Part shown: positions 7,089 to 7,990 of the stretch, one piece after another
Position numbering within the stretch: the stretch's first letter is position 1
How the letters are laid out: every line of letters begins with the position of its first letter
Virus record (IMG/VR): IMGVR_UViG_645058835_000001
Span: 1 to 13,104 of that record
Origin: a virus
Taxonomy: Duplodnaviria; Heunggongvirae; Uroviricota; Caudoviricetes
DNA length: 13,104 nt
Strand: one strand, 5' to 3'
Notes under the pieces: model-generated
Told to the model about the DNA's origin: nothing
Database searches by the model: none
The model's input: only the letters and a program-made list of their open reading frames with translations
Made by a program: the position numbers and the translations under genes

Positions 7089-7349
7089 TTAGCTGCTGTC
7101 TTTTTTATATAGCTCCTTGAGCGTATCAAAGACAATTTTCTTAACCATATCAGATTGTTGTTCTGCCATACGCTCTGCATCGTCAATGTAAACGGATGCA
7201 GAGCTTTGTTTAGCCAATGATTCTTCAATCGCTGCAATTATCTCTGAGTTCAGCGATCTGTTATTCATCTTCGCACGCTGTTTAATTTTCGCGTGGAGTT
7301 CATGCGGAAGTCTCAAGTGAAACTGCGCCTCGTCGTATTTGCTGTACAT
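7089..7349 (-). CDS. mnt: Arc/Mnt-family ribbon-helix-helix repressor (P22 Mnt-like)
   Basis: From MYSKYDEAQFHLRLPHELHAKIKQRAKMNNRSLNSEII...: an RHH motif (NxRSxNSE) and a C-terminus DDAERMAEQQSDMVKKIVFDTLKELYKK that closely matches the P22 Mnt C-terminus as recalled. Start at 7349 chosen by alignment; the track ORF extends to 7382. Confidence 0.65.
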   Translation of the reverse strand: MYSKYDEAQFHLRLPHELHAKIKQRAKMNNRSLNSEIIAAIEESLAKQSSASVYIDDAERMAEQQSDMVKKIVFDTLKELYKKDSS

Positions 7350-7480
7350 CCTTGATGCCTCACCAGTTGGGTGGAATGGCATCGTAACCTACTGGATAAA
7401 TACTCAATAGTACCATTTCGGTATGCAATCACATCATGGTTGCATCATATCATTCGTCTGGAGCAATGAAATGTCAGATA

Positions 7481-7990
7481 TCACCTACCATGATTCTCAT
7501 GATAACCATAGGTCTTTTCAGCCTCACGCCTTACAGCAATTGCATCATCGAGACTCTTAAAGTATCCGAGATTAATGCGCTTCCCTGCGTCGCTAATATA
7601 TGCCACCCACTTTTTATGGGTCTTATGCCATGAAACCCCTGCGCACCCAGATGTATTGTTTGTGTATTTAGATTTGTTTTTTAGGTTTTCACCGAGACTA
7701 ACTAGACGCAGGTTGTCTATTGAATTATTTAACCCATTACCATCTTTATGGTCAATTTGCATTCCGGAAGGGATTTCACCATAACACATTTCCCATATTA
7801 TCCTGTGGGCGGCGTATATTTTATCTTGATACCTAATAATTATATAAGAGGTTTTCTTGTTCTTGTCCTTGAATATATGTCCTGCAGGCTTTTCTTTAGA
7901 GATATTGAACATTTTGGGTCTTGAAAGATATTGGTCACTCCAGTACAGGAGTCCATCGTCTTTTAATACGAATACTTCGTTCCAGTTCAT
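7481..7990 (-). CDS. HNH endonuclease with C-terminal AP2-type DNA-binding domain (homing-endonuclease-like)
   Basis: HNH_3-type motif HRIIWEMCYGEIPSGMQIDHKDGNGLNNSIDNLRLVS; AP2-like CAGVSWHKTHKKWVAYISDAGKRINLGYFKSLDDAIAVRREAEKTYGY; AAGGTGG Shine-Dalgarno 5 nt before the ATG at 7990. Confidence 0.75.
   Translation of the reverse strand: MNWNEVFVLKDDGLLYWSDQYLSRPKMFNISKEKPAGHIFKDKNKKTSYIIIRYQDKIYAAHRIIWEMCYGEIPSGMQIDHKDGNGLNNSIDNLRLVSLGENLKNKSKYTNNTSGCAGVSWHKTHKKWVAYISDAGKRINLGYFKSLDDAIAVRREAEKTYGYHENHGR

What the first reader, a model, noticed from the sequence alone, without database searches (positions are those of the whole stretch)
7089..7990. Mnt-like repressor without arc/ant; an HNH-AP2 endonuclease occupies the adjacent slot
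Seen: a clear Mnt-like RHH protein (7089..7349) but no Arc- or Ant-like ORF. Between mnt and the tailspike gene lies an HNH-AP2 endonuclease gene on the same strand as mnt. A candidate operator sits upstream of mnt (ATGCAA-N11-TTGCAT, 7423-7445, with CATCAT repeats). Established knowledge: in P22 the immI region is mnt-arc-ant immediately upstream of gene 9. Inference: a homing-endonuclease insertion or replacement in the immI region; Mnt may now regulate a different target.
Basis: partly seen in the sequence, partly recalled or inferred. Interest (0 to 1): 0.4.

Follow-up and report, generated by a model that had tools for sequence, protein, structure and literature searches.

The report
HNH homing cassette at tailspike start
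In a decayed P22-like prophage of E. coli, a mobile HNH nuclease gene sits inside the first codons of the tailspike gene, next to a lone Mnt repressor; the lone repressor is a known arrangement, while this insertion site for selfish nuclease genes appears not to have been described.

Summary
7089-7349(-) encodes a true Mnt homologue, 7481-7990(-) an intact HNH_3 nuclease with an AP2-like C-terminal domain, and the window has no arc or ant.

Mnt without arc/ant, directly facing the tailspike gene, is a published and common arrangement (phages L, ST64T, ST160, Sf101, IME10; 217 of 5426 complete E. coli genomes). It does not depend on the HNH gene.

The HNH gene did not replace arc-ant. It is a ~611-bp cassette (7485-8095) inserted after nucleotide 14 of the tailspike ORF. 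The same junction occurs behind mnt alone, behind a complete mnt-arc-ant region, and directly behind gene 16. The cassette brings a new ribosome-binding site and a recoded tailspike start (MTDSIN instead of MTDIT).

Copies are 98-99.8% identical although their flanks are unrelated. Two other HNH lineages (35-42% identical) occupy the same junction, each with a differently recoded tailspike N-terminus.

The proposed operator (ATGCAA-N11-TTGCAT) is no better than chance and is not conserved. The positional homologue of the P22 mnt operator is AGTACCATTTCGGTATG, 7409-7425.

Verdict: the Mnt part is ordinary. The HNH part is a new member of a known kind, the free-standing homing endonucleases. Cleavage is untested.

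The parts
7089..7349 (-). mnt gene (86 aa): ribbon-helix-helix head plus Mnt-type C-terminal tetramerisation domain
   Evidence: Pfam Arc and Repressor_Mnt. 49% identity to P22 Mnt. The start at 7349 is favoured because the Pmnt -10 homologue lies downstream of the alternative ATG at 7382.
7381..7407 (-). Homologue of P22 Pmnt: -35 TTGAGT (7407-7402) and -10 TACGAT (7386-7381), with a spacer of only 15 nt
   Evidence: Aligns with P22 Pmnt (TTGAGA-17-TATCAT), as annotated in AF527608. Relatives VSe13 and L025 have a 17-nt spacer. Function is inferred.
7409..7425 (.). Positional homologue of the P22 mnt operator: AGTACCATTTCGGTATG (TACC-N5-GGTA core)
   Evidence: Aligns column for column with the annotated P22 operator AGGTCCACCGTGGACCT and with AAGACCACGGTGGTCTT of phages L and ST160. 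Conserved in VSe13 and Salmonella L025, which share the Mnt N-terminus MYSKYDEAQFHLRL. It is the only such site in the window.
7423..7445 (.).
   Evidence: Present, but 41% of shuffles give an equal repeat. Not conserved in VSe13 or L025.
7460..7484 (+). Stranded remnant of the original tailspike translation start: GGAG, then ATG (7471) and the first 14 nt of the ORF (MSDIT)
   Evidence: Identical to the native tailspike start of Sf101 and IME10 up to the junction.
7485..8095 (-). HNH cassette (~611 bp; the left end is ambiguous by 1 nt)
   Evidence: Absent from Sf101, IME10 and 217 E. coli genomes. Same junction in three flank contexts. 98-99.8% identical between loci whose flanks are unrelated.
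7481..7990 (-). HNH_3/AP2-like endonuclease gene (169 aa); its stop codon (TGA, 7481-7483) lies in the tailspike remnant
   Evidence: The alignment-invariant motif residues (H62, D80, H81, N89, N93, N105) are present. 15 of 16 copies are intact.
8019..8056 (-). Upstream region of the HNH gene: perfect -10 TATAAT (8024-8019), preceded by a weak hairpin (8035-8056) and a T-run
   Evidence: Read directly from the sequence (palindrome I11). No good -35, and the promoter scan did not call it. Function is inferred.
8066..8095 (+). Cassette-borne replacement ribosome-binding site (AGAG) and recoded first six tailspike codons: ATG ACA GAT TCA ATA AAT (MTDSIN)
   Evidence: Identical in all HNH1-bearing loci. 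The native alleles read MTDIT or MSDIT.
8078..10210 (+). Tailspike gene of HK620 type (710 aa)
   Evidence: Pfam Head_binding, Phage_spike_2 and HK620_9_C. 89% identity to the HK620 tailspike.
5993..7000 (+). Deletion scar: a DnaB-like helicase fragment fused to the 3' end of gene 16 (junction about 6787/6788). It shows the prophage is defective.
   Evidence: PHROG DnaB-like helicase plus the C-terminus of the DNA transfer protein. Homology to gene 16 of IME10 and PK8568 begins at 6788. RefSeq marks it as a pseudogene.

Best explanation
Two independent things lie side by side.

(1) mnt is the lone survivor of the P22 'ant moron' (the immI region). It keeps its own promoter region and its operator at 7409-7425. 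This is a common, already described architecture. Most likely Mnt only autoregulates, modulates transcription entering the tailspike gene, or represses ant of incoming phages with the same operator. That role is inferred, not shown.

(2) The HNH gene is a free-standing homing-endonuclease cassette whose home is the first codons of the P22-like tailspike gene.

Proposed mechanism: the I-HmuI-like HNH/AP2 enzyme nicks or cuts HNH-less tailspike alleles around codons 3-6 (ATG ACA GAY ATY ACN GCN AAY). The break is repaired from the cassette-bearing genome, using the roughly 25-bp start remnant on the left and the conserved head-binding-domain sequence on the right, and this copies the cassette in. 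Because the cassette carries a new ribosome-binding site and a recoded start (MTDSIN), the tailspike gene stays functional and the carrier allele no longer contains the target.

Shown here: the presence/absence polymorphism, the identical junction in three flank contexts, conservation of the cassette above that of its flanks, an intact catalytic motif, and the recoded start.

Inferred: cleavage, the position of the target, and immunity through recoding.

In this particular strain the prophage is a deletion remnant, so the cassette is a passenger and is not currently homing.
For: Empty sites: Sf101 and IME10 lack exactly 7486-8075, and both flanks continue. 217 of 5426 E. coli genomes have the empty site and 15 carry the cassette.

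Same junction (...AT[C/T]AC|C TACCATG...) in three contexts:
- behind mnt alone: the window, PK8568, M160133, EC1515, Tig228 and five IMG/VR contigs;
- behind mnt-arc-ant: NRG857C, L011, L020;
- directly behind gene 16: LD39-1, L017.

The left remnant carries the local allele's polymorphisms (ATGTCAGATATCAC versus ATGACAGACATTAC). These match the native HNH-less alleles of Sf101 and of Gally/CUS-3.

The cassette is 98-99.8% identical between loci whose left flanks and receptor-binding domains are unrelated (about 54% in a global alignment). The adjacent head-binding domain is only 91-93% identical. Carrier prophages sit at different chromosomal sites (argW, near torT, near dacD) and carry tailspikes of at least five different lengths.

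Orthologues 82, 74 and 64% identical, in Enterobacter ludwigii, Salmonella enterica and metagenomes, all sit divergently in front of a Head_binding tailspike. All go with MTDSI-type starts, and the Salmonella copy shares the left junction.

Two further HNH_3 lineages sit at the same junction: the phage Kapi1 type and the L087 type, 35-42% identical to this one. Each comes with a different recoded tailspike N-terminus (MPEQLY, MSNIVP).

Family: the best solved relative is the homing endonuclease I-HmuI. 3467 phage records hold homologues, often several per genome.

Mnt side: mnt next to the tailspike gene without arc/ant occurs in phages L, ST160, Gally, Sf101, IME10 and VSe13 and is published.
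Against: - No cleavage, nicking or homing has been measured for any member, and the target site is only inferred from the junction and the recoding.
- All three HNH lineages end in Arg-stop overlapping the remnant. The shared junction could therefore descend from one ancient insertion, followed by passive spread through ordinary homologous recombination among mosaic P22-like phages.
- No long co-conversion tract is visible to the right of the cassette.
- The cassette is rare (15 of 5426 genomes) and one of 16 copies is frameshifted.
- HNH-less MTDSIN alleles (HK620, 40 IMG/VR contigs) occur only with the ant-terminator type of upstream sequence. MTDSIN may therefore be an ordinary allele rather than an immunity recoding.
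- The Pmnt homologue has a 15-nt spacer, so mnt expression here is uncertain.
Confidence: 0.7

Rival explanations
1. Passive cargo in a recombination hot-spot. The region between the late operon and the tailspike gene is the one place where P22-like phages tolerate extra genes. The conserved start of the tailspike gene acts as a recombination linker ('boundary sequence'). HNH genes simply accumulate there and move by ordinary homologous recombination, without nuclease-driven homing.
For: The epsilon34 paper describes this region as the only moron site in the morphogenetic cluster, with very high flux. The CUS-3 record annotates a 'boundary sequence' directly upstream of and abutting the tailspike start. 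No co-conversion gradient is seen. The three HNH lineages share the Arg-stop overlap, which fits one old insertion.
Against: All three insertions found at this exact nucleotide are HNH_3 genes. The insertion lies inside the coding sequence and each time comes with a recoded start. The cassette is more conserved than either flank. The family's solved relative is a homing enzyme.
Confidence: 0.17
2. A prophage-encoded exclusion nuclease. The HNH enzyme is expressed from the lysogen and cuts the DNA of superinfecting P22-like phages at the tailspike start, like sieA in the same region. Spread of the gene would be a by-product.
For: It sits in the moron that also holds sieA and mnt in P22. It has a possible promoter of its own (perfect TATAAT at 8024-8019). 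It is kept intact even in deletion remnants (the window and PK8568).
Against: The window's proteins were not scanned against PADLOC, and nothing was measured. The feature that most calls for explanation, the precise in-ORF insertion with a replaced start, is explained by homing and not by defence. The two readings do not exclude each other.
Confidence: 0.08
3. One reading: the HNH gene replaced arc-ant in immI, and Mnt now controls it through the ATGCAA-N11-TTGCAT palindrome.
For: The HNH gene lies directly upstream of mnt on the same strand, with no evident terminator between them.
Against: The same cassette coexists with intact arc-ant (NRG857C; Kapi1 for the second HNH type) and also occurs with no immI at all. 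Mnt-only modules without any HNH gene are far more common. The palindrome is at chance level and is not conserved. The only O_mnt-like site is the ancestral one.
Confidence: 0.05

Closest known systems
P22 immI / 'ant moron' variants with mnt only (ST64T, ST104, phage L, ST160, Sf101, IME10)
   Same: A Mnt homologue transcribed away from the tailspike gene, with Pmnt and O_mnt homologues in the same positions and no arc, ant or sar.
   Different: The DNA-reading N-terminus differs (MYSKYDEAQFHLRLP against MARDDPHFNFRMP), and with it the operator core (TACC-N5-GGTA against GTCC-N5-GGAC). An HNH cassette now separates the promoter region from the tailspike gene.
I-HmuI (PDB 1U3E), the intron-encoded HNH homing endonuclease of Bacillus phage SPO1
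   Same: The best sequence and fold match: an HNH (beta-beta-alpha-metal) nuclease core with an extended DNA-binding architecture.
   Different: About 20% identity. The window's gene is free-standing rather than intron-encoded, and its C-terminal domain is AP2-like. I-HmuI is a nicking enzyme; the activity here is unknown.
HNH-AP2 homing endonucleases of phages and cyanobacteria (the family from which plant AP2 domains are thought to derive; from my own knowledge, Magnani et al. 2004)
   Same: HNH_3 plus AP2 domain architecture.
   Different: The AP2 match is below Pfam's threshold here. The target (a tailspike gene start) has not been described in the literature I could search.
Free-standing homing endonucleases of T-even phages (Seg and Mob proteins; for example mobE, which splits nrdA in phage Aeh1; from my own knowledge)
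   Same: An intron-less nuclease gene inserted between or within conserved genes, patchy distribution, and the host gene kept functional.
   Different: These are GIY-YIG or other HNH subfamilies in lytic phages. Here the host is a temperate P22-like phage, and the cassette replaces the start codon and first codons of the target gene rather than splitting it.
HK97 gp74-type HNH proteins that assist terminase
   Same: A small HNH protein encoded by a phage.
   Different: A different Pfam family. Those genes lie next to terminase in cos phages, whereas this one lies next to the tailspike gene, remote from where terminase sits in the P22 gene order (my own knowledge; the window holds no terminase). 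This explanation is rejected.

Membership tests
P22 Mnt repressor family | N-terminal ribbon-helix-helix (Arc/MetJ-type) DNA-binding domain | tested here: met
   Pfam Arc E=1e-14. Aligns with P22 Mnt from residue 4 without gaps.
P22 Mnt repressor family | C-terminal Mnt-specific tetramerisation (coiled-coil) domain | tested here: met
   Pfam Repressor_Mnt PF11423, E=3.3e-14, covering profile positions 3-28 of 28.
P22 Mnt repressor family | A 17-bp dyad operator directly upstream of the Pmnt -35 | tested here: met
   7409-7425 aligns with the annotated P22 operator. The CC and TGG columns and the following ATTG are invariant. The dyad is imperfect (core TACC-N5-GGTA).
P22 Mnt repressor family | Sequence-specific binding and repression | not testable with these tools
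   Needs EMSA, footprinting or reporter assays.
Complete P22 immI region (mnt-arc-ant-sar) | Arc repressor gene divergent from mnt | tested here: not met
   tblastn with two Arc proteins gives no hit with E<1. No ORF occupies the slot.
Complete P22 immI region (mnt-arc-ant-sar) | Antirepressor gene ant | tested here: not met
   tblastn with the P22 and NRG857C Ant proteins gives no hit with E<1.
Free-standing HNH homing endonuclease | Intact HNH nuclease motif | tested here: met
   HNH_3 E=1.8e-19. H62, D80, H81, N89, N93 and N105 are invariant in a 53-sequence alignment. I-HmuI is the top hit in PDB.
Free-standing HNH homing endonuclease | Separate DNA-binding domain (here AP2-like) | tested here: inconclusive
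   Pfam AP2 gives 22.8 bits, below the 33.3 cut-off. The AF2 model has a three-strand plus helix domain that matches AP2 structures with probability 1.0 but E>0.05.
Free-standing HNH homing endonuclease | Presence/absence polymorphism at one fixed site between otherwise homologous genomes | tested here: met
Free-standing HNH homing endonuclease | Horizontal spread: the element is more conserved than its flanks and is found in unrelated contexts | tested here: met
   98-99.8% cassette identity against about 54% (left flank, receptor-binding domain) and 91-93% (head-binding domain). Three immI contexts and at least three chromosomal sites.
Free-standing HNH homing endonuclease | Cleavage of the element-free allele near the insertion site, with the carrier allele resistant | not testable with these tools
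   Only indirect support: the carrier alleles are recoded exactly at the junction in all three HNH lineages.
HK97 gp74-like packaging HNH | Gene adjacent to the terminase genes of a cos phage | tested here: not met
   The gene lies between the ant moron and the tailspike gene in every locus examined.

The most novel reading that the evidence does not exclude
The first six codons of the P22-like tailspike gene are a shared landing pad for which at least three HNH-AP2 endonuclease lineages compete. Each lineage protects its carrier with a differently recoded tailspike N-terminus (MTDSIN, MPEQLY, MSNIVP). Widespread HNH-less MTDSIN alleles, such as that of HK620, would be footprints of cassette loss. 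Because the breaks would fall exactly at the 5' boundary of the host-range gene, these selfish nucleases could be a motor for the well-known swapping of tailspike receptor-binding modules among P22-like phages.
Probability: 0.3. Interest if true: 0.65.

Novelty: new member of a known kind. Interest (0 to 1): 0.4.

Why it matters
The Mnt part changes nothing, because mnt-only ant morons are already known.

The HNH part adds a clear, testable case of a homing-endonuclease site in temperate P22-like phages. It lies at the boundary of the gene that sets host range. It explains an odd detail of a model phage protein, the MTDSIN start of the HK620 tailspike against MTDIT in P22. It suggests that nuclease-made breaks could promote exchange of tailspike modules. 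It also gives three natural enzyme/allele pairs for studying HNH-AP2 target recognition and immunity through recoding. For annotation, it shows that the short 'ATG..ACC' ORF stub upstream of these HNH genes is a scar of the tailspike start.

Tried and rejected
Rejected in favour of 7409-7425.
- A second Mnt site near the HNH promoter or the tailspike gene was searched for. None was found.
- Sigma-70 and terminator scans of 6900-8300 gave 2 promoter-like sites against 4.1 expected and 1 terminator-like site against 1.4 expected. This is uninformative. The hairpin and TATAAT upstream of the HNH gene were read by eye only.
- The homologue of the P22 Pant promoter (ATGGCA-14-TAAATA) looks degenerate, so I could not assign Mnt a rightward promoter to repress.
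- NCBIfam has no model for the HNH protein.
- No record among 50,697 phage records carries this cassette at 85% DNA identity or more, or at 60% protein identity or more. It is seen only in prophages.
- The genome-contig scan found only two species-representative genomes with close relatives, E. coli and E. whittamii.
- Literature searches found no description of an HNH gene at the tailspike start. Papers in subscription journals were not searchable.
- A co-conversion tract was looked for and not seen: right-flank polymorphisms return to local alleles within about 12 nt.
- Whether HK620's MTDSIN start is a footprint or a native allele could not be settled.

Full report
**Where the window comes from.** The 13.1-kb window matches the chromosome of E. 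coli strain 357900 (NZ_CP038859) over its full length. It lies next to tRNA-Arg (argW) and the integrase gene intS. It is a P22-like (Lederbergvirus-type) prophage that has lost almost everything.
- An ORF at 5993-7000 fuses a DnaB-type helicase fragment to the last roughly 70 codons of the DNA-injection gene 16. Homology to gene 16 starts at 6788.
- An erf fragment abuts the helicase fragment.
- What remains on the right is mnt, an HNH gene, an HK620-type tailspike gene (89% identical), a Wzy-like O-antigen polymerase gene and intS.

**The observation.** The Mnt-like ORF is real. It matches Pfam Arc (E=1e-14) and the Mnt-specific C-terminal domain (E=3.3e-14). It is 49% identical to P22 Mnt over 80 residues without gaps.

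The HNH ORF (7481-7990, 169 aa) matches HNH_3 at E=1.8e-19. Its AP2 hit is below threshold. A 53-sequence alignment shows the motif residues to be invariant. An AlphaFold2 model (pLDDT 94) has a C-terminal three-stranded sheet plus helix. Foldseek matches the model to I-HmuI and to plant and Plasmodium AP2 domains with high probability but weak E-values. I-HmuI is also the only significant sequence hit in the PDB.

No Arc or Ant homologue exists anywhere in the window.

**Mnt alone is ordinary.** Phages L, ST160, Gally, Sf101, IME10 and VSe13 all have mnt directly facing the tailspike gene, without arc or ant. The epsilon34 genome paper describes this region as the highly variable 'ant moron' and notes that ST64T, ST104 and Para1 keep only mnt (PMC2629481). 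A 161-nt probe spanning the Sf101 junction between the mnt promoter region and the tailspike gene matches over at least 80% of its length, uninterrupted, in 217 of 5426 complete E. coli genomes.

**Where the operator is.** The P22-pbi record annotates the mnt operator, Pmnt, Pant and the arc operator. I lined up the regions upstream of mnt from P22, L, Gally, ST160, VSe13, a Salmonella prophage (L025) and the window.
- The P22 operator AGGTCCACCGTGGACCT falls on AAGACCACGGTGGTCTT in phages L and ST160.
- In the window it falls on CATACCGAAATGGTACT, which on the + strand is AGTACCATTTCGGTATG at 7409-7425.
- In every case it is followed by ATTG(A/T)G, the Pmnt -35.
- The half-site changes track the Mnt beta-strand residues: PHFNFRMP in P22, PQFNLRLP in L, AQFHLRLP in the window.
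- VSe13 and L025 have the same reading head as the window but a different C-terminal half. They keep this 17-mer at 15-16 of 17 positions.
- TACC-N5-GGTA occurs only once in the window.

The Pmnt homologue here has a 15-nt spacer, against 17 nt in VSe13. The Pant homologue looks degenerate. What Mnt controls in this lineage therefore remains inferred.

**The HNH gene is a cassette in the tailspike start.** Against Sf101 and IME10, homology runs to 7485 and resumes at 8076. In those phages the tailspike ORF begins ATG TCA GAT ATC ACC GCA AAT. In the window the first 14-15 nt of that ORF, with its ribosome-binding site, are stranded at 7460-7485. They are followed by the end of the HNH gene, whose TGA stop lies inside the remnant.

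At the other end the cassette supplies AGAGAAATTAAA ATG ACA GAT TCA ATA AAT. The native sequence GCC AAT GTT... then continues. The tailspike protein therefore starts MTDSIN instead of MTDIT or MSDIT.

**The cassette is mobile and independent of immI.** Fifteen complete E. coli genomes and seven IMG/VR contigs carry it. The junction is the same to the nucleotide in three different settings:
- behind mnt alone;
- behind a full mnt-arc-ant region, after the ant terminator (NRG857C);
- directly behind gene 16, with no immI at all (LD39-1).

The stranded remnant carries the local allele's polymorphisms. Cassette copies are 98-99.8% identical, whereas left flanks and receptor-binding domains are unrelated and the adjacent head-binding domain is 91-93% identical. 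The prophages sit at argW, near torT and near dacD. Fifteen of sixteen copies are intact and one is frameshifted. The HNH gene therefore did not replace arc-ant.

**A deeper pattern.** Proteins 82%, 74% and 64% identical to this HNH protein come from Enterobacter ludwigii, Salmonella enterica and metagenomes. All are encoded divergently, immediately upstream of a Head_binding tailspike gene, and all go with MTDSI-type starts. The Salmonella copy has the same left junction.

Searching for the remnant sequence uncovered two other HNH_3 genes at the very same junction:
- One is in the viable temperate phage Kapi1 and in 15 genomes.
- The other is in 7 genomes.
- They are 35-42% identical to the window's enzyme and to each other.
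- Each comes with a differently recoded tailspike N-terminus: MPEQLYNVVVS and MSNIVPNVIIS.
- All three proteins end in Arg-stop overlapping the remnant.

**Mechanism.** The most economical reading (about 0.7) is a free-standing homing endonuclease. It would nick or cut HNH-less tailspike alleles around codons 3-6. It would be copied in by repair that uses the short start remnant and the conserved head-binding sequence. It would leave the carrier allele functional but recoded, and therefore resistant.

Shown here: the polymorphism, the identical junction, conservation above that of the flanks, the intact motif and the recoding. Not shown: any cleavage.

The main rival (about 0.17) is passive carriage in a recombination hot-spot. 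The shared Arg-stop overlap could mean one old insertion, and no co-conversion tract is visible. An exclusion role in the lysogen is compatible with either reading.

**HK620.** HK620 and 40 of 47 IMG/VR contigs with the MTDSIN start have no HNH gene, and all have the ant-terminator type of upstream sequence. They could be footprints of cassette loss by recombination between the two copies of the translation start; both A3 and A4 variants of the joint exist. They could equally be the native allele from which the cassette's right end was taken. This is unresolved.

**Novelty.** None of the searchable papers mentions an HNH gene at this site. The kind of element is well known. This home site, the replacement of the start codons, and the coexistence of three lineages at one nucleotide appear to be new.

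Noticed in passing
window 1-2482: A SIR2-family gene with a STAND-type NTPase region (a candidate defence gene) is split into two ORFs (1-1230 and 1214-2482). The cause is one extra A in a poly-A run near 1194, relative to RefSeq NZ_CP038859, where it is a single 826-aa CDS. The window also differs from that record by one SNP in the HNH gene (F40 here, S40 there). Across 6788-8400 the window matches strain PK8568 exactly.
   Followed up: partly
window 5814-7000: Two deletion scars. 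An erf C-terminal fragment abuts a DnaB-like helicase fragment. The helicase fragment is fused in frame to the last roughly 70 codons of injection gene 16 (junction about 6787/6788). All head, tail, lysis and immC genes are gone.
   Followed up: partly
window 3189-4241 (-): A 350-aa ORF with a rolling-circle replication protein domain (Pfam REP_ORF2-G2P; PHROG 30534 at E=2e-152) sits in the early-left region of a P22-like prophage. The adjoining block 1-4319 is shared at 99.6-100% by other E. coli strains.
   Followed up: no
window 10388-11632 (-): An oligosaccharide repeat-unit (Wzy-like) polymerase gene lies between the tailspike gene and intS, in the same position as hkcF in HK620 (TIGR04370, E=1.4e-33).
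   Followed up: no
L072 9301-9801 / L086 (phage Kapi1) 3032-3532; L087 3531-4019: Two further, distinct HNH_3 endonuclease genes (35-42% identical to the window's) are inserted at exactly the same nucleotide of the tailspike ORF. Each comes with a differently recoded tailspike start (MPEQLY, MSNIVP). They are present in 15 and 7 complete E. coli genomes.
   Followed up: partly
L010 (HK620) 3500-3535; L031-L070: HK620 and 40 IMG/VR contigs carry the cassette-type tailspike start MTDSIN without any HNH gene, always behind the ant-terminator type of upstream sequence. This is either a footprint of cassette loss or the native source allele.
   Followed up: partly
L025/L026 (Salmonella enterica) 4655-4910: An Mnt variant has the window's DNA-reading head (MYSKYDEAQFHLRL) but an unrelated C-terminal half, as in phage VSe13. 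It sits next to the HNH orthologue in prophages that also carry a second Arc/Mnt-like gene and an antirepressor. This points to domain shuffling within Mnt.
   Followed up: no
window 7381-7407: The Pmnt homologue has a 15-nt spacer because of a 2-nt deletion relative to VSe13 and L025 (17 nt). Sf101 and IME10 share this. The mnt promoter in this E. coli lineage may be weak or replaced.
   Followed up: no
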